Both the position numbers and the translations under genes were made by a program. The notes under the pieces are model-generated. The model did no database searches and was not told the DNA's origin. It worked only from the letters and a program-made list of their open reading frames with translations. DNA of 64,000 nucleotides, from positions 77,322-141,321 of IMG/VR virus record IMGVR_UViG_3300021354_000450. One strand, given 5' to 3'. Shown here piece after piece: positions 4,808 through 63,982 of the stretch (position 1 is its first letter; each line of letters opens with the position of its first letter). The stretch comes from a virus.

Positions 4808-7654
4808 ATGAGTTATGTAGATGCCATCTGGAACCGTGACGAGGATATCGTCCGTGTTGTTGAAAGAGATCCAGTTAAGGGTCGAACCTATCAAGAATTT
4901 CCCGCAAAGTATATGTTTTATTACCCTGATCAAAAGGGTAAGTATAGATCAATCTATGACGATTCTTTAAGTAAAGTTGTCTGTAAAAACTGGAAAGACT
5001 TTATTAAAGAACAAAAGATTCATAGTACACACAAGTTATTTGAATCAGATATTAATCCAGTATTTCGATGTTTAGAAGACAATTATCTTAATCAAGAAGC
5101 TCCAAAACTAAATGTAGCGTTTTGGGATATCGAGGTTGACATGCAACCATTTGCTGTTTCAGGACAACACCTGGTAAAGATTCGAAAAATAAAAACAGTA
5201 GTGGATGAAAAAGAAATAACAGTATTTAAATTAAATGAATTACCAAATAAAGAAGAGTATCAAGTATGGGATGATATTAAAAAGGAATGGGTTGATATTT
5301 ACGGATGTAGATATTTAGAAGCAGGACCTGGCTATGCAAGTCCAGAAGATGCATTTATGCCTATTACTGCAATTGCTGTACACCTACAATGGTTAGATAT
5401 GCTGGTGTGTTTAGCTGTTCCACCTAAAACTCTTAAAATGGAACAAGCACAAGAATTAATTAAAGATATTCCGAATACTTTTCTATTCGACACAGAAGCA
5501 GAAATGTTAGAAACATTTTTAAATTTAATTGAAGATGCTGATGTACTAAGTGGGTGGAATAGTGAAGGCTTTGATATGCCGTATACTGTTAATCGTGTAA
5601 TAAAAACTCTAAGTAAAGAAGATACTAGACGTTTTTGTTTGTTTGACCAATTTCCAAAGAAACGTGAATACGAAAAATACGGAAAGAAAGCAAGTACATA
5701 TGATCTTGTCGGTCGCGTACATCTTGATAGTCTTGAACTTTATAGAAAATATACCTACGAAGAAAGACACACTTATCGATTAGATGCAATTGGTGAGATG
5801 GAAGTCGGTGAAACTAAAACTGTTTATGAAGGTACACTTGATCAATTATACAATAATGATTTTCGTACATTTATTCTTTATAATAGACAAGATACCGCAC
5901 TATTAGACAAGTTAGATAAAAAACTTAAATTTATTGACCTTGCTAATACAATTGCACATGAAAATGCAGTTTTGATTGCAACAACTATGGGTGCAGTTGC
6001 AGTAACAGAACAAGCAATTATAATTGAATCACATTCAAAAGGTTTAATTGTTCCAAGTCGTCCAAGAAAAGATGATACTGCTGATAATCAAGCAGCAGGT
6101 GCTTATGTTGCTTATCCAAAAAAAGGATTGCATGATTGGATAGGGTCAATGGATATAAACTCTCTATATCCGAGTGCTATTCGTGCATTAAACATGGGTC
6201 CAGAAACTATTATTGGTCAACTAAGACAAGATTATTCAAAAGAAGAAATTGCTACCAAGATGGCAAAGAATGGCGGTAAGTTTGCATTAGCGTGGGAAGG
6301 AAAGTTTGGCAGTAATGAATATGAATTTGTTATGGCAAAAGATAAATCACATGATATAATTGTTGATTGGGAAAACGGATCAACTGATGTACTAAGTGGT
6401 GCTCAAATCTACGAAATGATTTTTAATAGCAATCAACCTTGGATATTAAGTGCAAACGGTACAATCTTTACTTATGAAAAAGAAGGTATTATTCCAGGTT
6501 TGTTAAAAAGATGGTATTCCGAACGTAAGTCCCTTCAAGCAAAACTTAAAGATGCAATTAAAGCAGAAAACGAAGTTGAAGAAGAATATTGGGATAAACG
6601 ACAATTGGTAAAAAAGATTTTGCTAAACAGTTTATACGGTGCTATTTTAAATTCAGGATGTAGATTCTTTGATAAACGGATCGGTCAATCAACTACATTA
6701 ACTGGTAGACGTATCGCTCGTCATATGGCTGCAAAAGTAAATGAATATGTTGCAGGCGAATACGATTATATTGGAAAAAGTATTATATACGGTGATACTG
6801 ACTCTGTTTATTTTAGTGCATGGCCAATTTTAAAACATGATATCCAAAAAGGACTTATTCCTTGGAACAAAGATACAGTTGTTCAATTATATGATCAAAT
6901 TTCTGATGAAGTTAATGCTACATTTCCAAAGTTTATGCTTGATGATTTTCATGTGCCAAAATCACGTGGTGAAGTAATTAAAGCAGGACGAGAAATTGTT
7001 GCTATCAAAGGTTTGTTTATTACTAAGAAAAGATATGCTGTATTATATTTTGATAAAGATGGTAAGAGACAAGACCAAGACGGAAAACCTGGAAAGATCA
7101 AAGCAATGGGTTTAGATTTAAAACGATCAGATACTCCAGAATTTATGCAAAACTTTTTGAGTGAAGTATTAGAAAAAGTTTTAAATGGTGCAGAAGAACC
7201 GGAAATTTTAGAAATGATTTGTAATTTTAGAACTGAATTTAAAGCAAGACCTGGCTGGGAAAAAGGTAGTCCAAAACGTGCCAATAAAATAACTGATTAT
7301 CAAGCTAAAGAAAAGAAACAAGGTAAGGCAAATATGCCGGGTCATGTTCGTGCAAGTATTAATTGGAATACTTTAAAAACAATGCATGGTGACAAATATA
7401 GTCAACAAATTGTCGATGGTATGAAAGTTATTGTTTGTAAGATTAAAGACAATCCACTCGGTTTTACAAGTGTTGCTTATCCAGTTGACGAATTAAGATT
7501 ACCTAAATGGTTTCAAGAATTACCATTTAATCATAGTGAAATGGAAACTGCAATTATTAATAACAAGTTAGACAATTTAATCGGTGTACTTGATTGGGAT
7601 TTAAGTTCAACAACACAAGATAATAACTTTAACAGTTTATTTTCATTCAATTAA
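4808..7654 (+). CDS. Family B DNA polymerase (T4 gp43-like)
   Basis: ExoI DIE, ExoII WNSEGFD, ExoIII YNRQD, region A DINSLYPS, region B KKILLNSLYG, region C YGDTDS, KKRY. Confidence 0.97.
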   Translation: MSYVDAIWNRDEDIVRVVERDPVKGRTYQEFPAKYMFYYPDQKGKYRSIYDDSLSKVVCKNWKDFIKEQKIHSTHKLFESDINPVFRCLEDNYLNQEAPKLNVAFWDIEVDMQPFAVSGQHLVKIRKIKTVVDEKEITVFKLNELPNKEEYQVWDDIKKEWVDIYGCRYLEAGPGYASPEDAFMPITAIAVHLQWLDMLVCLAVPPKTLKMEQAQELIKDIPNTFLFDTEAEMLETFLNLIEDADVLSGWNSEGFDMPYTVNRVIKTLSKEDTRRFCLFDQFPKKREYEKYGKKASTYDLVGRVHLDSLELYRKYTYEERHTYRLDAIGEMEVGETKTVYEGTLDQLYNNDFRTFILYNRQDTALLDKLDKKLKFIDLANTIAHENAVLIATTMGAVAVTEQAIIIESHSKGLIVPSRPRKDDTADNQAAGAYVAYPKKGLHDWIGSMDINSLYPSAIRALNMGPETIIGQLRQDYSKEEIATKMAKNGGKFALAWEGKFGSNEYEFVMAKDKSHDIIVDWENGSTDVLSGAQIYEMIFNSNQPWILSANGTIFTYEKEGIIPGLLKRWYSERKSLQAKLKDAIKAENEVEEEYWDKRQLVKKILLNSLYGAILNSGCRFFDKRIGQSTTLTGRRIARHMAAKVNEYVAGEYDYIGKSIIYGDTDSVYFSAWPILKHDIQKGLIPWNKDTVVQLYDQISDEVNATFPKFMLDDFHVPKSRGEVIKAGREIVAIKGLFITKKRYAVLYFDKDGKRQDQDGKPGKIKAMGLDLKRSDTPEFMQNFLSEVLEKVLNGAEEPEILEMICNFRTEFKARPGWEKGSPKRANKITDYQAKEKKQGKANMPGHVRASINWNTLKTMHGDKYSQQIVDGMKVIVCKIKDNPLGFTSVAYPVDELRLPKWFQELPFNHSEMETAIINNKLDNLIGVLDWDLSSTTQDNNFNSLFSFN

Positions 7655-59095: not shown

Positions 59096-60112
59096 ATGAG
59101 CAACTTGTTCAAGAAGGTTGCTGCCTTCACCGACATACATTTTGGATTAAAATCAAATTCAGCAACACATAATCAAGATTGTGAAGATTTTGTTGATTGG
59201 TTTATTGCAGAAGCAAAATTAGAAGGTGCAGAAGCCTGTATCTTTTTAGGTGACTGGCACCATAATAGAAATAGTATTAATTTAACAACTTTAGACACAA
59301 GTCTAAGATGTTTAGAAAAATTAGGTGCCGCATTTGAAAATTTCTTTTGGTTTCCTGGAAATCATGACTTATTTTACAAAGATAAACGTGATATTCACAG
59401 TTCTGCATTTGGAAAACATATTCCCGGTGTGACAATTGTTGATAAAGTAACAACAATAGGTAATGTAACATTAGTTCCGTGGCTAGTAGGAGAGGAATGG
59501 AAAGAAATTAGCAAAGTTAAAAGCAAATATATGTTTGGACACTTTGAATTACCATTATTTTACATGAATGCAATGGTGCAAATGCCAGATCATGGTGAAT
59601 TACAGATTAATCATTTTAAACATCAGGATTATGTTTTCAGCGGTCACTTCCATAAACGGCAATCACGTGATAAGATCGTATACATAGGAAATGCATTTCC
59701 GCACAATTTTGCAGATACGTGGGATGATGAAAGAGGTATGATGTTACTTGAATGGGGTGAGGTTCCTCAATTTAAAACGTGGGAAGATGCACCTAAGTAT
59801 AGAAATATTAAACTGTCAGAGCTTATTGATAGAAAAGATGAACTAATGAAGTCAAAAATGTACTTAAAAGTTAATCTCGACATTGATATTAGCTATGAAG
59901 AAGCAACTTTTATTAAAGAAACCTTTATAGGCGAATATGATATTAGAGAAATGAGTTTAATACAAGAAAAAAATAATATCGAAAGTGTTGCAGATGATAA
60001 TTTAGAAACTAACTTTAAAAATGTTGATCAAATTGTAACAGAACAATTGATTAGTATTGATTCAGATGCATTTGAAAAAAAACTTTTACTAGATCTTTAT
60101 AATAACCTATGA
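59096..60112 (+). CDS. Recombination nuclease subunit (gp47/Mre11/SbcD-like)
   Basis: DIHFG, GDWHH, GNHD, GHFE, SGHFH. Confidence 0.92.
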   Translation: MSNLFKKVAAFTDIHFGLKSNSATHNQDCEDFVDWFIAEAKLEGAEACIFLGDWHHNRNSINLTTLDTSLRCLEKLGAAFENFFWFPGNHDLFYKDKRDIHSSAFGKHIPGVTIVDKVTTIGNVTLVPWLVGEEWKEISKVKSKYMFGHFELPLFYMNAMVQMPDHGELQINHFKHQDYVFSGHFHKRQSRDKIVYIGNAFPHNFADTWDDERGMMLLEWGEVPQFKTWEDAPKYRNIKLSELIDRKDELMKSKMYLKVNLDIDISYEEATFIKETFIGEYDIREMSLIQEKNNIESVADDNLETNFKNVDQIVTEQLISIDSDAFEKKLLLDLYNNL

Positions 60113-61902
60113 ATTTTTCAATTGATAATTTAACTGCAAAAAATTTTATGTCTATTGGCAATCAAACACAAGCAATAGACTTTAACAAAGAACATCTTAC
60201 ATTAGTTCTTGGTGAGAATTTAGATTTAGGTGGGGATGATAGTGGTTCAAGAAACGGAACTGGTAAAACAACTATGATTAATGCCTTAAGTTATGCATTA
60301 TATGGTCAAGCACTTACTAATATCCGTAAAGAAAACTTAATTAATAAAACAAACGGAAAAAATATGCTTGTAACTACTAGTGGACAAGCAAATGGTCAAT
60401 TTTATCGTATTGAACGAGGAAGAAAACCAAATGTTCTTAAGTTATTCATCAATGATCAAGAACAACAGGCATCTGATGACAAAGATGATAATGCACAAGG
60501 TGATTCAAGAGAAACACAAAAGCATATTGAACAGTTATTAGGTATGAGTCATACAATGTTTAAACATTTGGTTGCTTTAAACACATATACTGAACCGTTC
60601 CTTTCAATGAGATCAGCAGATCAACGTGAAGTTATTGAACAGTTACTTGGAATTACTGTATTATCAGAAAAAGCTGAGAATTTAAAGGTCCAAGTTAAAA
60701 CTATTAAAGATAGTATACAATCAGAGTCATTTAAAATTGATAGTATCAAAGCTGCAAACGAAAATGTTCAAAAAAGTATTGATAGTTTAAAAATTAAAAG
60801 TTCTGTTTGGGAATCAAAAGTAGAACAAGAGCTTGAAAATTTAGGTAAAGCAATAATGCAGATTGATTCTGTTGATATTGAAGTTGAATTAGAAGCTCAT
60901 ACGTTACTTAAACAATGGAATGACAATAATAACAAGCTAAAAGACCTTAATAAACAAAAAGCAACATTAGAATCAGCATTTAGCCAAGCACAAAAGACAC
61001 GAGATCGGTATGTTAACGAATTAGAAAGTTTATCAAATAAAACATGCCATGCATGTGAACAATCACTTCATGATGAAAAACATCAAGAAATGACTAAAAC
61101 TGCAACGGGTCATGTAATAGATGCACAAAAATATTTCGATAAAGTCAGCACTGATCTTTCAAAAGTATGTGAAGACATTGAAACTTTAGGTATTTTACCA
61201 CGTCCTCCTACGACTTTTTATGAAACTGATTTAGAAGCACTAGGACATAAGAATAATCTTTCAAGTTTAGAACGAAGTTTAGAAGCAAAAGCAAACGAAG
61301 TTAACCCATATAACGAACAAATTGAAGAACTTAAGCATACTGCGATTCAAGAAATTACATGGGACACTATAAATGAATTAACTACAATTAAAGATCATCA
61401 AGAATTCTTGTATAAACTTTTAACAAATAAAGATAGTTTTATCCGTAAAAAGATAATTGATCAAAATCTTAGCTATCTTAACAAAAGATTAAGTTACTAC
61501 ATTGATAAAATGGGATTACCACATCAAGTTATTTTTCAAAATGACTTAAATGTTGAGATAACGCAATTAGGACAAGACTTAGATTTTGATAACCTAAGTA
61601 GAGGTGAACGTAATAGACTTATTTTAAGTTTAAGTTTTGCATTTAGAGATGTTTGGGAAAACTTATATCAACATATTAACTTATTGTTTGTAGATGAGTT
61701 GATTGATGCAGGAATGGATTCTGCAGGAGTCGAAGCAGGATTAGGAGTTCTTAAGAAAATGGCACGTGAAAGAAACAAAAATGTATTTTTAATCTCTCAT
61801 AAAGATGAACTTATCGGACGAGTAAACAATGTTTTACGTGTAGTTAAGGAAAATGGTTATACAAGTTATGATACAAATCCAGAATATGTAGAGGCCACAT
61901 GA
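60109..61902 (+). CDS. Recombination ATPase (gp46/Rad50/SbcC-like)
   Basis: Walker A NGTGKTT, coiled coil with CHAC zinc hook, LSRGE signature, Walker B FVDE, SH. Confidence 0.93.
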   Translation: MNFSIDNLTAKNFMSIGNQTQAIDFNKEHLTLVLGENLDLGGDDSGSRNGTGKTTMINALSYALYGQALTNIRKENLINKTNGKNMLVTTSGQANGQFYRIERGRKPNVLKLFINDQEQQASDDKDDNAQGDSRETQKHIEQLLGMSHTMFKHLVALNTYTEPFLSMRSADQREVIEQLLGITVLSEKAENLKVQVKTIKDSIQSESFKIDSIKAANENVQKSIDSLKIKSSVWESKVEQELENLGKAIMQIDSVDIEVELEAHTLLKQWNDNNNKLKDLNKQKATLESAFSQAQKTRDRYVNELESLSNKTCHACEQSLHDEKHQEMTKTATGHVIDAQKYFDKVSTDLSKVCEDIETLGILPRPPTTFYETDLEALGHKNNLSSLERSLEAKANEVNPYNEQIEELKHTAIQEITWDTINELTTIKDHQEFLYKLLTNKDSFIRKKIIDQNLSYLNKRLSYYIDKMGLPHQVIFQNDLNVEITQLGQDLDFDNLSRGERNRLILSLSFAFRDVWENLYQHINLLFVDELIDAGMDSAGVEAGLGVLKKMARERNKNVFLISHKDELIGRVNNVLRVVKENGYTSYDTNPEYVEAT

Positions 61903-62150
61903 CTAATTTGATAAACAAGTATATTGAAGAGCATGAAAAATTTATTGATGCTTTAGTCAAATATTATCCTGCACATGAAGATTTTTTAGCAAGACAAAGT
62001 CCAAAACGTACAGGTAATTTACGTAAGATCTATAAAGAAATGCGAATAGCATTACGAAATATGGAAAAAATATCTCAAGCAAGAATGCAAGAACGCAGAA
62101 TTGAATGGGGTTTAGTTAACAGAATAAAAAAGGAAAATAACAATGAGTGA
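61899..62150 (+). CDS. Small basic helical protein, possibly a divergent Hc1-like paralog
   Basis: Coupled ORF; F..RQSPKRTGNLRKIYKEMR resembles the next gene. Confidence 0.5.
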   Translation: MTNLINKYIEEHEKFIDALVKYYPAHEDFLARQSPKRTGNLRKIYKEMRIALRNMEKISQARMQERRIEWGLVNRIKKENNNE

Positions 62151-62337
62151 AACAATTCAAGCAATTAAAGAAGCAGTAACAGCATGGACTACAGAAGATG
62201 CAAAATTTGAAAGCGGCAACAGTGCAGCAGGTACTCGTGCTCGTAAAGCTTTAGCAGAAATCGGAAAGTTAATCAAAGCTCGTCGAACCGAAATTACTGC
62301 AGAAAAAAACGCACGTAAAGAAGCAAAAGGTTCTTAA
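62143..62337 (+). CDS. Histone H1-like protein (Hc1 family)
   Basis: KFESGNSAAGTRARKALAEI...R.EI..EKN. Confidence 0.8.
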   Translation: MSETIQAIKEAVTAWTTEDAKFESGNSAAGTRARKALAEIGKLIKARRTEITAEKNARKEAKGS

Positions 62338-62347
62338 GGTTAACTAA

Positions 62348-63073
62348 ATGAAAAATAAATTTTTAGGACTTCGTTGTAAAATTTGCGATGCAAAAACATC
62401 AATTTTAGGAGTTTGTGACTTCAATAAAACATGCGAAGAAGAAAAAAATAAAAAAGTTTTTTCTTGGATAGGATTTCCTGTTTATTATCATCAATGTGAA
62501 AATTGTAATTTTATTTTTACAACCGATTTTGATCAATGGTCAATTGAAGATTTTATTTTAAATATCTACAACGACGACTATATCAAAGTTGATCCAGATT
62601 ATAACGGAGAACGTCCTAAATTTTGTTTTTCATGGTTTTCTCCAATGTTAAATGGTGATAAATCAATTAATATTTTAGACTATGGTGCTGGAAACGATTT
62701 ATTCAGTAAAGAACTTAATAATCACGGTTACAAAGCAACAGGATGGGATCCGATGTGGCAAAAAGAACCAACATTTAATTTAGAAACAAAATTTGATGTT
62801 GTAACTGCATTTGAAGTATTAGAACATACTCCAACTCCTTTAGAAACATTAGATCAAATGATTAAATTTATTGATTCAGAAAGTGGACAAATTGTTTTTA
62901 GTACGCTGGTAAATGATATCATCGGTGATCAAGGTTTAAATTATTGGTATCTTGCTCCACGCAATGGTCATGTTTGTATGCATTCTCAAAAAAGTTTACA
63001 AATTATGTTTGATAAAGTAGGAATGGATTTTCAAAGTTTTAGTCCTAGTCAACATATTGCATTTTGGAAATAA
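62348..63073 (+). CDS. Class I SAM-dependent methyltransferase with N-terminal Cys pairs
   Basis: CKIC, CENC, ILDYGAG, FDVVTAFEVLEH. Confidence 0.85.
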   Translation: MKNKFLGLRCKICDAKTSILGVCDFNKTCEEEKNKKVFSWIGFPVYYHQCENCNFIFTTDFDQWSIEDFILNIYNDDYIKVDPDYNGERPKFCFSWFSPMLNGDKSINILDYGAGNDLFSKELNNHGYKATGWDPMWQKEPTFNLETKFDVVTAFEVLEHTPTPLETLDQMIKFIDSESGQIVFSTLVNDIIGDQGLNYWYLAPRNGHVCMHSQKSLQIMFDKVGMDFQSFSPSQHIAFWK

Positions 63074-63507
63074 TATTGTCTTGGTCGTATCAAGGAACAA
63101 TAGTCGAAAACCTACCTGAAGACTGTGTAGGTTTTGTCTATTTGATAACAAATACAACCAACAACAAAAAATATATTGGTAAGAAGTTAGCAAAGTTTAG
63201 TAAAACAACTTACAAAACTATAAAGCTAAAAAACGGCACAAAAAAGAAAAAGAAAATACGAAGTAAGGTTGATAGTGATTGGAAAGAATATTTTGGTTCC
63301 AATATTCATCTTAACGAAGATGTAAAAAACTTAGGCACTGACAAATTCATACGCGAAATTTTATTTTATTGCACATCAAAAGCAGAATGCTCTTATATCG
63401 AAGCACGTGAACAATTTACTCATAAAGTTTTAGAATCACATGATTATTACAATGGTCAAATTGCTGTACGTGTACATGGCTCACATATTTTAAAGAAAAA
63501 ACCTTAA
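63064..63507 (+). CDS. Minimal GIY-YIG nuclease (Seg-like) with a Lys-rich insertion
   Basis: GFVYLITN...KYIGKK, Y.GS, EAREQ, YYNG. The start may be TTG 63076. Confidence 0.8.
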   Translation: MEIILSWSYQGTIVENLPEDCVGFVYLITNTTNNKKYIGKKLAKFSKTTYKTIKLKNGTKKKKKIRSKVDSDWKEYFGSNIHLNEDVKNLGTDKFIREILFYCTSKAECSYIEAREQFTHKVLESHDYYNGQIAVRVHGSHILKKKP

Positions 63508-63890
63508 GGCAACATTTTACATATTATGCTCGCACCGGCAATCGGGTGCCTAGAGACAACCTGCAGAATAGTAGGGGACGGAAGACTCTGCGATGTACAG
63601 AGCACTTAGCAACTATCCTTAACAGGACGACGATCGCAAAAATGCCGCGGTTTTGCTATTTGAATAGAGTAACTAACGAGCTAAAAGAGAGGACAGTGAT
63701 CCTCAGAATTAATATTATGTTAGCGTATAATATTAATTTACCGTCATATTAAGAACGTGGCTAGGGGTACCGGATGACCGCCTCAGTAATGCTATAACGC
63801 TAATGACTAATAAAGAACTCAGATAATGTTTCTTTTTTCTCTTTACCCGTCCTGGGTAAAGTATGACCATTGAATCTAGATAATACTTAA
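63508..63890 (+). ncRNA. Candidate large structured non-coding RNA (family unassigned)
   Basis: Richer in GC than its flanks, no credible ORF, at least 9 hairpins and a loop-distal 7-bp complementarity. Strand and ends are inferred. Confidence 0.55.
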
Positions 63891-63966
63891 CATCTTTAAA
63901 GGTTTTAAAAAATGCTTCGAATATGAGTGTAAACGAATATGAAGAAGCATATGAGCGTTAAGCTCA

Positions 63967-63982
63967 TATAAATATATAAATA
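63967..63982 (+). promoter_or_regulatory. Tandem T4-type late promoter boxes
   Basis: TATAAATA twice, back to back. Confidence 0.55.

What the first reader, a model, noticed from the sequence alone, without database searches (positions are those of the whole stretch)
63064..63890. Minimal GIY-YIG nuclease immediately followed by a large ornate RNA: candidate nuclease-RNA system
Seen, protein: the ~145-aa nuclease is a catalytic domain only, with no NUMOD or HTH tail, but has a very basic insertion (KFSKTTYKTIKLKNGTKKKKKIRSK). Seen, RNA: directly after its stop is a non-coding tract, richer in GC than its flanks, with stems GCACC/GGTGC (63532-63549), CCTGC/GTAGG (63560-63575), CTCTG/CAGAG (63586-63602), TCCT/AGGA (63616-63627), GCAAAA/TTTTGC (63636-63656), GAGGA/TCCTC (63689-63704), a 12-bp stem (63707-63738), CGG/CCG (63771-63780) and CTTTACCC/GGGTAAAG (63841-63861). 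The loop of the 12-bp stem, TTAGCGT (63720-63726), is complementary to ACGCTAA (63797-63803), next to GTCA/TGAC (63743/63804), which suggests a pseudoknot. I could not match it to tRNA, tmRNA, RNase P or group I/II intron hallmarks. Known: compact nucleases such as IscB and TnpB use adjacent structured RNAs, and phages encode large RNAs of unknown function. Inference: this may be an undescribed ribonucleoprotein, possibly RNA-guided, or a new large ncRNA class.
Basis: partly seen in the sequence, partly recalled or inferred. Interest (0 to 1): 0.85.

Follow-up and report, generated by a model that had tools for sequence, protein, structure and literature searches.

The report
Full-length Polynucleobacter-1 twin-box phage RNA
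The gene-free stretch behind a small nuclease gene of this uncultured T4-like phage encodes a real, knotted non-coding RNA of about 440 bases whose first third is an orphan motif catalogued in 2010; it does not need the nuclease, it also sits in chromosomal islands of culturable Polynucleobacter bacteria, and its job is still unknown.

Summary
A 147-aa SegE-type GIY-YIG gene (63064-63507) is followed by a conserved, GC-richer, ORF-free tract. Bases 63527-63661 are Rfam RF01718 (Polynucleobacter-1, 75 bits against a cut-off of 37). Weinberg 2010 already placed that motif downstream of homologues of this same gene. The uncatalogued rest (63686-63968) is just as real. It also holds a hairpin flanked by two copies of one 7-nt word (AGATAAT, at 63821 and 63878). 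The two copies are identical in all 140 distinct relatives, although 10 different words occur.

The nuclease-RNA system is not supported. Ten of 80 close GIY-YIG homologues lie elsewhere without the RNA. One RNA follows a PD-(D/E)XK nuclease instead, and one follows an amidoligase gene. Ten full copies in Polynucleobacter chromosomes have no GIY-YIG gene within 8 kb. There the RNA stands between a divergent DUF6641 gene and a 188-aa tyrosine recombinase, inside an integrase-bearing island.

I found no partner for the words, in cis or in eight phage contigs. This scan has reported the same RNA family on other DNA several times. The chromosomal-island copies did not turn up in my look-ups of earlier notes. 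Function: unknown; my best guess is a self-standing RNA read by base pairing.

The parts
63064..63507 (+). SegE-type GIY-YIG nuclease gene, 147 aa, catalytic domain only; a neighbour of the RNA, not shown to be its partner
   Evidence: PF19835 E 1.9e-32 and phrog_447 E 2.2e-36. Y26, Y37-I-G39, R97-E98, E113 and N130 are invariant in 7 homologues down to 40% identity.
63527..63661 (+). Domain 1: Polynucleobacter-1 RNA motif (Rfam RF01718), full model 1-141
   Evidence: 75.1 bits against a gathering score of 37, E 4e-14. Covarying pairs include 63611-63654, 63610-63655, 63609-63656, 63607-63658, 63635-63649 and 63532-63549.
63689..63704 (+). Hairpin H1 (GAGGA/TCCTC)
   Evidence: Pairs change on both sides: GC 26 / CG 12 / UA 4 and GC 20 / UA 9 / AU 5.
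63707..63738 (+). 12-bp hairpin H2; its loop 63720-63726 is the 5' strand of pseudoknot PK1
   Evidence: RNAalifold finds 12 pairs, most with compensatory changes.
63720..63803 (+). Pseudoknot PK1: 63720-63726 (UUAGCGU) pairs with 63797-63803 (ACGCUAA)
   Evidence: 94.9% paired; 6 of 7 pairs changed on both sides, for example GC 42 / AU 10 and CG 41 / UA 11.
63744..63777 (+).
   Evidence: 95.3% paired; UA 33 / CG 20 and GC 37 / AU 15.
63758..63794 (+). Nested helices H4 (63758-61 / 63791-94), H5 (63764-67 / 63781-84) and H6 (63771-73 / 63778-80) around the invariant GGUACCGG...ACCGCC
   Evidence: H4 is 99.1% paired with four pair types (GC 20, CG 18, UA 10, AU 4). H5 is 96.7% paired.
63803..63828 (+). 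Twin-box unit 1: AUGAC, spacer, GAACUC, then the word AGAUAAU (63821-63827)
   Evidence: The word is identical to the copy at 63878-84. Identity holds in 140 of 140 distinct RNA loci with 10 different words.
63841..63861 (+). Hairpin H7 between the two boxes (CUUUACCC/GGGUAAAG)
   Evidence: The stem varies with pairing kept (GCCC/GGGC, CUCCCG/CGGGAG, CACCG/CGGUG) in alignment A1. Its GC pairs are invariant.
63863..63885 (+). Twin-box unit 2: AUGAC, 6-nt spacer, AUCU, then the word AGAUAAU (63878-63884)
   Evidence: Mutual information 0.99, 0.97 and 0.78 with 100% identity for 63821/63878, 63825/63882 and 63827/63884.
63914..63948 (+). 3' hairpin (GCUUC/GAAGC) holding a 9-nt direct repeat CGAAUAUGA (63918-26 and 63934-42)
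   Evidence: Read from the sequence. Pair 63918-63944 covaries, 95% complementary.
63950..63968 (+). Last hairpin (UAUGAGC GUUA GCUCAUA); probable 3' end of the RNA, and terminator-like for the minus strand
   Evidence: Terminator-like hit on the minus strand at 63970-63948. The stretch is conserved.
63967..63982 (+). Two tandem TATAAATA motifs (63967-74, 63975-82), the T4 late-promoter consensus; probably serve the variable gene beyond the contig end
   Evidence: Read from the sequence. The consensus comes from established T4 knowledge, so the function is inferred.

Best explanation
SHOWN. 63527-~63968 (+) is a gene for a self-standing structured non-coding RNA of about 440 nt. It is the full-length form of the Polynucleobacter-1 RNA. 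It has four parts:
- a 5' domain that is Rfam RF01718;
- a doubly pseudoknotted core with the invariant GGUACCGG...ACCGCC hairpin;
- a 'twin-box' tail, in which hairpin 63841-61 is flanked by GAACUC+AGAUAAU and GAAUCU+AGAUAAU;
- two closing hairpins.
The RNA is anchored to the junction between the gp47-gp46 recombination genes and the late baseplate genes. It is not anchored to the GIY-YIG gene, which is one of several interchangeable cargo genes upstream. A homologous RNA, with its own twin boxes, stands as its own unit in an integrase-bearing island of Polynucleobacter chromosomes.

INFERRED. The knotted body is a scaffold that shows two single-stranded copies of one word to a single reader. 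The word may be almost any sequence, but the copies must match. That pattern is what base pairing or copying by a nucleic acid gives, and not what a protein with fixed specificity gives. In both settings the RNA lies beside DNA-metabolism genes: gp46/47 in the phage, and a clamp-loader-like ATPase plus recombinases in the island. I therefore lean towards a role in DNA replication or recombination of mobile elements. Tight adjacency to the GIY-YIG gene in this clade most likely reflects shared transcription.
For: - RF01718 scores 75.1 bits with full model coverage.
- Conservation and covariation reach well beyond the Rfam model. The whole structure is 79% paired against 44-49% when partners are slid, the covariation score is 0.333 against 0.07-0.18, and 0 of 500 shuffles reach it.
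- G-U pairs fix the strand as +.
- Twin words are identical in 140 of 140 distinct loci with 10 words. A tree built without the boxes needs at least 21 word changes.
- Independence from the nuclease. Ten of 80 close GIY-YIG homologues lack both the RNA and gp46/47. Melnitz and P-SSM2 homologues have no RNA. The RNA follows a PD-(D/E)XK nuclease in L146 and an amidoligase gene in L166.
- The downstream gene is variable, absent or convergent.
- 13 of 121 Polynucleobacter genomes hold RF01718. Ten copies fetched from large chromosomal contigs all have twin boxes and a fixed neighbourhood: DUF6641 on the minus strand, then the RNA, then a 188-aa tyrosine recombinase, a clamp-loader-like AAA+ protein and a 423-aa integrase. 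In L399 a terminator-like hairpin sits at +470.
Against: - There are no expression data.
- No partner for the words was found in cis or as a co-varying orthologous site in eight phage contigs that are 12-65% complete.
- In 4 of 10 island copies the boxes differ at the word's edges, which leaves a 6-nt identical core.
- 52 of 55 phage RNA loci do have the GIY-YIG gene within 1.5 kb upstream, so a clade-specific functional tie cannot be excluded.
- The replication/recombination role rests on gene neighbourhood only.
Confidence: 0.6

Rival explanations
1. One reading: the RNA is the partner (guide or scaffold) of the adjacent minimal GIY-YIG nuclease, whose basic loop binds it.
For: The gene stop and the RNA start are about 20 nt apart. 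52 of 55 phage RNA loci have the gene within 1.5 kb upstream, and about 70 of 80 close homologues are followed by the RNA. The protein lacks any DNA-binding domain and has a lysine-rich loop.
Against: Ten of 80 close homologues (68-79% identical) sit elsewhere without the RNA. So do the Melnitz and P-SSM2 homologues, and no cultured phage matches the RNA tract by blastn although 514 records hold the gene. The RNA occurs behind a PD-(D/E)XK nuclease, behind an amidoligase gene, and in ten bacterial islands with no GIY-YIG gene within 8 kb. The basic loop is family-wide.
Confidence: 0.07
2. The linkage reflects homing. The small nucleases upstream (GIY-YIG, or PD-(D/E)XK in L146) are free-standing mobile endonuclease genes that settled beside a highly conserved RNA gene, because its DNA offers a conserved cleavage target.
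For: The protein belongs to a Seg-type family. The gene is found in at least four genomic settings. A nuclease of a different fold occupies the same slot in L146. From established knowledge, T4 segB lies among tRNA genes.
Against: There is no DNA-binding domain. The gene is near-universal rather than sporadic in this clade and is present in 514 phage records, which fits a housekeeping enzyme better than a selfish one.
Confidence: 0.15
3. The RNA is a replication element: a structured primer or origin transcript, in the manner of ColE1 RNA II or the T4 oriF/oriG R-loops. The Polynucleobacter island carries its own copy so that a phage-type replisome replicates it.
For: The RNA lies next to gp46/gp47 in phages. 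In the island it lies next to a T4 gp44-like clamp-loader ATPase, phrog_168 E 1.8e-22. It is the only element shared by phage and island.
Against: This is neighbourhood evidence only. Nothing in the model requires two identical words. No AT-rich unwinding element was tested.
Confidence: 0.15
4. The tract is a cis-regulatory leader (riboswitch or attenuator) of the gene downstream, as the Weinberg 2010 table tentatively marked it.
For: It lies upstream of a + strand ORF in many relatives. Two similar boxes could in principle be alternative pairing partners.
Against: The downstream ORF belongs to more than ten unrelated families, or is missing with a convergent baseplate gene next. No third segment complementary to both boxes exists. 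TATAAATA motifs lie after the RNA. The island copy L399 ends in a terminator-like hairpin.
Confidence: 0.04
5. The twin words act in DNA, as the identical crossover cores of two tyrosine-recombinase sites.
For: Identity without conservation is the rule for recombinase overlap regions (established knowledge). All ten island copies have a 188-aa recombinase 0.8-2 kb downstream.
Against: A spacing of 47-72 bp is too short for excision. No recombinase gene was found in the phage DNA held. The recombinase family is in 60 of 121 genomes, mostly without the RNA. The surrounding sequence evolves under RNA pairing rules.
Confidence: 0.03

Closest known systems
Polynucleobacter-1 RNA motif (Rfam RF01718; Weinberg et al. 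2010, PMC2864571, Additional file 1)
   Same: 63527-63661 matches the whole 141-position model at twice the gathering score. It lies downstream of a PSSM2_218 homologue, exactly as the paper noted.
   Different: The Rfam model covers only the first third. The pseudoknotted core, the twin boxes and the 3' hairpins are not modelled. The paper found the motif in no purified phage and did not recognise the upstream gene as a GIY-YIG nuclease.
cow-rumen-2 RNA motif (Rfam RF02947)
   Same: The layout of the core is shared: a hairpin with a YUAGC loop, a GCCGCC strand, an ACMGGAUGACC hairpin and GUAA. Matches run both ways but are weak: 21.4 bits, E 0.19 on the window, and my core model gives 14-20 bits on rumen-phage loci. 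Those RNAs also carry repeated words around a hairpin.
   Different: The score is far below the gathering score of 66, so this is not a member. The words are different, there are up to four copies per rumen phage, and the PK1 partner is not evident.
GOLLD and ROOL, large orphan ncRNAs often carried by phages and prophages (from my own knowledge of the literature)
   Same: All are large, elaborately folded RNAs linked to mobile elements, with no known function.
   Different: No sequence or Rfam relation. Twin identical words are not described for them.
IscB/TnpB omega-RNAs
   Same: A structured RNA encoded next to a compact nuclease gene.
   Different: The nuclease fold differs. Co-occurrence is not obligate. 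No guide-target relation was found, and the RNA also lives without any nuclease gene nearby.
Template RNAs whose ends repeat: the telomerase RNA template, and the DRT2 ncRNA used for rolling-circle reverse transcription (from my own knowledge)
   Same: Two short identical direct repeats bracket a segment, and only their identity matters.
   Different: There is no reverse transcriptase nearby. The unit length is 47-58 nt with no multiple-of-three rule, and no frame of the concatenated unit stays open across relatives.

Membership tests
Rfam RF01718 Polynucleobacter-1 | Score at or above the curated gathering score (37 bits) over the full model | tested here: met
   75.1 bits, model 1-141/141, 63527-63661 +
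Rfam RF01718 Polynucleobacter-1 | Consensus helices kept by covariation in relatives | tested here: met
   Complementary co-variation at 63532-49, 63534-47, 63607-58, 63609-56, 63610-55, 63611-54 and 63635-49
Rfam RF01718 Polynucleobacter-1 | Lies downstream of a GOS11034 / PSSM2_218-like gene (Weinberg 2010) | tested here: met
   The window protein and PSSM2_218 are 37% identical, E 7e-20
Rfam RF02947 cow-rumen-2 | Score at or above the gathering score (66 bits) | tested here: not met
   21.4 bits, E 0.19 at 63706-63810
GIY-YIG nuclease superfamily, SegE-type (PF19835) | Profile match above the cut-off, with conserved GIY and YIG tyrosines and Arg/Glu/Asn | tested here: met
   112.5 bits against a cut-off of 25. 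Y26, Y37-I-G39, R97-E98, E113 and N130 are invariant. Which of these residues are catalytic is inferred.
Seg-type free-standing homing endonuclease | C-terminal DNA-binding domain behind the catalytic domain | tested here: not met
   147 aa, and the profile covers 7-133; no other Pfam, NCBIfam or PDB match
Seg-type free-standing homing endonuclease | Sporadic presence among close relatives | tested here: inconclusive
   The gene is present in 52 of 55 RNA loci, but it occurs in several genomic settings and is replaced by a PD-(D/E)XK nuclease in L146
RNA-guided nuclease system (IscB/TnpB-like) | Nuclease and RNA always occur together | tested here: not met
   Each occurs without the other
RNA-guided nuclease system (IscB/TnpB-like) | A variable guide segment with a matching target | tested here: inconclusive
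   The twin words vary, but no complementary or identical co-varying site was found in 8 incomplete contigs
Group I intron carrying a GIY-YIG gene | Intron core match and a split host gene | tested here: not met
   No intron family down to E 5. The flanking ORFs are complete.
tRNA / tmRNA / RNase P | Detection by ARAGORN or Rfam | tested here: not met
   No such gene in the window
Cis-regulatory leader / riboswitch | A conserved regulated gene downstream | tested here: not met
   The downstream ORFs fall into many unrelated clusters, or the next gene is convergent
DRT2-like template RNA | An adjacent reverse transcriptase, and an open frame across the repeated unit | tested here: not met
   Pfam and PHROG scans of flanking ORFs showed no reverse transcriptase. 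Spacing modulo 3 is 13/19/24, and all frames are closed in most relatives.

The most novel reading that the evidence does not exclude
The twin words are the two alignment sites of a copying or bridging mechanism. Either a polymerase realigns from one copy to the other and so copies the hairpin segment again and again, or the RNA holds two DNA partners by the same short core for a recombinase that lacks its own DNA-binding arm. The island's 188-aa tyrosine recombinase has only the catalytic domain. Either way this would be a new kind of RNA-programmed DNA transaction, shared by giant T4-like phages and a bacterial island.
Probability: 0.04. Interest if true: 0.9.

Novelty: new variant of a known kind. 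Interest (0 to 1): 0.6.

Why it matters
An RNA of about 440 nt with two pseudoknots that is kept in well over a hundred uncultured giant T4-like phages is in the size and complexity class where ribozymes and ribonucleoprotein scaffolds are found. Only a third of it is catalogued. The rule 'two copies, any sequence, always identical' is rare, and it points to a base-pairing or copying step that nobody has described for phages.

That would allow the RNA to be detected, deleted and mutated in a bacterium, without first isolating an uncultured phage. It also corrects the attractive but unsupported idea of an RNA-guided GIY-YIG nuclease.

Tried and rejected
- A cis partner for the words. No positionally conserved reverse complement lies within 3 kb, and no complementary co-varying column exists.
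- A trans partner. I compared all occurrences of each genome's own word, on both strands, across 8 phage contigs with 6 different words. Only the two boxes themselves are orthologous. One two-genome hit lies in a coding region and fails in other genomes. Extended copies of the word in this record occur at chance level, 10 seen against about 8 expected.
- Bypass or concatemer coding. Box spacing is 47-58 nt with no multiple-of-three rule, and frames are closed.
- A mini-ORF from the AUG/GUG of 'RUGAC' to the stop inside the word. By my reading of the box sequences, it is in frame in unit 2 only, and is broken by internal stops in some relatives.
- A helix between the two spacers. It is no better than in shuffled pairings, 4.81 against 4.80.
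- A mini-CRISPR array or type III antitoxin repeats. The units are only about 65% alike outside the word.
- A single-box (deleted) allele. None was seen.
- Sigma-70 promoter reading of the boxes. The spacing to the GUGAC element is 10-11 nt, and T at -7 is not kept.
- CsrA sites. 40% of the words lack GGA.
- My phage core model R1 did not detect the island core. Homology of that part rests on RF01718, the boxes and reading by eye.
- The PDB sequence search gave nothing for the nuclease.
- blastn of the RNA tract against cultured phages gave no match.
Full report
WHERE WE ARE. The window is the last 64 kb of a 141,321-bp IMG/VR virus record, and it ends at the contig end. The record is rated about 40% complete and is AT-rich, with GC 0.33. 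The genes before the finding are those of a T4-like phage:
- gp47 (59096-60112) and gp46 (60109-61902);
- an Hc1-like histone-like protein (62143-62337);
- a methyltransferase (62348-63073);
- the 147-aa ORF at 63064-63507.

THE PROTEIN. The ORF matches PF19835 (SegE GIY-YIG domain) end to end, E 1.9e-32, and phrog_447. It has no other domain and no PDB relative by sequence. Y26, Y37-I-G39, R97-E98, E113 and N130 are invariant down to 40% identity, so it looks like an active nuclease. Homologues are in 514 cultured-phage records, mostly cyanophages. The nearest, at 54%, is in Methylophilales phage Melnitz, where the gene follows nrdB.

THE RNA: KNOWN PART. Rfam places 63527-63661 (+) in RF01718, Polynucleobacter-1, at 75.1 bits against a gathering score of 37, with the full model covered. 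The supplement of Weinberg et al. 2010 (PMC2864571) says most examples lie downstream of GOS11034 genes 'with possible homology to PSSM2_218', and that none was seen in a purified phage. PSSM2_218 of P-SSM2 is a homologue of the window's nuclease, 37% identical, E 7e-20. ARAGORN finds no tRNA or tmRNA.

THE RNA: UNCATALOGUED PART. I fetched 80 viral contigs through the protein, at 68-79% identity. Most have a conserved ORF-free tract of 450-515 nt right behind the gene. On a 53-sequence alignment I counted pairs for a structure with two pseudoknots.
- 79% of cells are paired, against 44-49% when the partners are slid.
- The covariation score is 0.333 against 0.07-0.18, and 0 of 500 shuffles reach it.
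It is 94.9% paired, with 6 of 7 pairs changed on both sides.
- H4 (63758-61 / 63791-94) is 99.1% paired, with four pair types.
63744-47 pairs with the loop 63774-77 (UA 33 / CG 20; GC 37 / AU 15).
- Frequent G-U pairs fix the strand as +.
- The window's 444 nt fold with z = -2.99.
- Two more conserved hairpins (63914-48, 63950-68) close the RNA. Two TATAAATA motifs follow.

THE TWIN BOXES. Hairpin 63841-61 is flanked by GAACUC+AGAUAAU (word at 63821-27) and GAAUCU+AGAUAAU (word at 63878-84). Across relatives the two words co-vary by identity, not by complement. Mutual information is 0.99, 0.97 and 0.78, with 100% identity. In 145 distinct loci that hold the core motif, 140 have identical words. 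The other five are three chance or coding matches, one RNA with a long insert that does have the pair further on, and one unclear case. Ten words occur by that count, and variant RNAs add others such as ACATGAA. A tree built without the boxes needs at least 21 word changes. Recombination may inflate this figure, but nine is the floor for ten words.

I tested and rejected several explanations:
- a complementary partner in cis;
- a third co-varying site in eight phage contigs with six words;
- translational bypass or a concatemer reading frame;
- a helix between the spacers;
- single-box deletion alleles.
Identity without conservation is what base pairing or copying demands.

IS THE NUCLEASE A PARTNER? 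Within this clade the pair is tight. Of 55 genuine RNA loci picked by an RNA motif alone, 48 have the gene directly upstream and 4 have one gene in between. But the two parts separate in every other comparison.
- Ten of the 80 close homologues sit in another setting, with no RNA within 3 kb and no gp46/47.
- The Melnitz and P-SSM2 homologues have no RNA.
- In L146 the RNA follows a PD-(D/E)XK nuclease (PF24608) behind gp47-gp46. In L166 it follows an amidoligase gene.
- The stretch between gp46 and the RNA holds changing cargo, including Hc1, a methyltransferase and radical-SAM genes.
- Downstream, the next gene is one of many unrelated ORFs, or the convergent baseplate-hub gene. This also argues against a leader function.
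- Some relatives (L012, L013, L058) keep the core and boxes but carry a different 5' domain that RF01718 does not see.

A SECOND HOME. A motif scan of bacterial genomes hit contigs binned with Polynucleobacter. A family search then found RF01718 in 13 of 121 Polynucleobacter genomes, several on contigs of 2.0-2.2 Mb, with one or two copies each. All ten chromosomal copies I fetched have domain 1 and a diverged core; in the copy I read through (L399) its hairpin loop again pairs with a downstream strand. All ten also have twin boxes with the same GAACUC and GAAUCU flanks but other words, such as AGCGAAAG, ATCAAAAG, AGAGAAAG and GGAGAAAG. In four copies the boxes differ at the word's edge.

The neighbourhood is fixed in all ten:
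- DUF6641 on the opposite strand;
- then the RNA, which in L399 ends in a terminator-like hairpin at +470;
- then a 188-aa tyrosine recombinase that is a catalytic domain only;
- a clamp-loader-like AAA+ protein;
- and a 423-aa integrase.
There is no GIY-YIG gene there, and none of the island proteins occurs in the phage DNA held. The small recombinase family is in 60 of 121 genomes, mostly without the RNA. So the RNA is not its obligate partner either. My phage core model did not detect the island core. That part of the homology therefore rests on RF01718, the boxes and reading by eye.

RELATION TO COW-RUMEN-2. The core gives a weak full-length match to RF02947 (21.4 bits, E 0.19). My core model finds rumen-phage cow-rumen-2 loci at 14-20 bits, which is the same range as bona fide divergent twin-box RNAs. 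Those RNAs are multi-copy in phages of about 415 kb and carry their own repeated words around a hairpin. A distant common origin is likely but not shown.

EARLIER NOTES OF THIS SCAN. After I had seen the boxes myself, the look-ups showed that this family has been reported repeatedly on other DNA, with the same reading: a real RNA, an extension of RF01718, twin words and an unknown reader. My look-ups for a chromosomal-island copy, by keyword only, returned nothing.

VERDICT. The nuclease-RNA system is not supported. What is there is the full-length Polynucleobacter-1 twin-box RNA, a partly catalogued, widespread, self-standing RNA of mobile elements. Its mechanism is open. My lean is a base-pairing or copying role in DNA replication or recombination, held with low confidence.

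Noticed in passing
L398-L407 (Polynucleobacter chromosomal loci), RNA at locus-specific positions: Full-length twin-box RNA inside an integrase-bearing chromosomal island. The gene order is fixed: DUF6641, RNA, 188-aa tyrosine recombinase, clamp-loader-like AAA+ protein, 423-aa integrase. It is in 13 of 121 genomes, with up to two copies. It may be a satellite of T4-like phages.
   Followed up: partly
Polynucleobacter genomes G012-G131: A family of catalytic-domain-only tyrosine recombinases of about 188 aa is present in 60 of 121 genomes, with up to six copies per genome, mostly away from the RNA. What element they belong to is unknown.
   Followed up: no
L146:3963-4484: A 173-aa PD-(D/E)XK nuclease (PF24608) sits exactly where the GIY-YIG gene usually is, between gp46 and the RNA. 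Two unrelated small nucleases therefore use the same slot.
   Followed up: partly
L166:3911-4304 and 5169-5240: A phage contig with the twin-box RNA also encodes a permuted (two-piece, alpha-type) tmRNA (RF04321, 92.5 bits) and a tRNA.
   Followed up: no
window 62143-62337: A 64-aa homologue of the chlamydial histone-like protein Hc1 (PF07432, E 5e-14) in a T4-like phage. tblastn gave 19 matches for it among the related contigs and loci held.
   Followed up: no
L243-L305 (rumen phage contigs): cow-rumen-2-type RNAs occur up to four times in one 415-kb phage. They carry their own repeated words around a hairpin (ACGGAATAT, ACAGATAT, CCAAAAG). In L251 two different words are nested in the order A-B-hairpin-B-A.
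   Followed up: partly
window 63918-63926 and 63934-63942: A 9-nt direct repeat, CGAATATGA, inside the 3' hairpin 63914-63948. I did not check whether relatives keep it.
   Followed up: no
window 35955 and G000:C1:37569: A 12-nt copy of box 2 (ATCTAGATAATA) lies ahead of an RBS-like GGAGA, and there is a perfect palindrome ATTATCT-C-AGATAAT elsewhere in the record. The overall count of such words is at chance level, so these are probably coincidences.
   Followed up: partly
L012:2913-3250, L013, L058; L022 and L072: Relatives that keep the twin boxes behind the same nuclease gene have a different 5' domain that RF01718 does not recognise; L012, L013 and L058 also keep the core motif. The 5' domain therefore seems exchangeable.
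   Followed up: partly
window 63967-63982: Two tandem exact T4 late-promoter motifs, TATAAATA, directly after the last RNA hairpin and pointing off the contig end.
   Followed up: no
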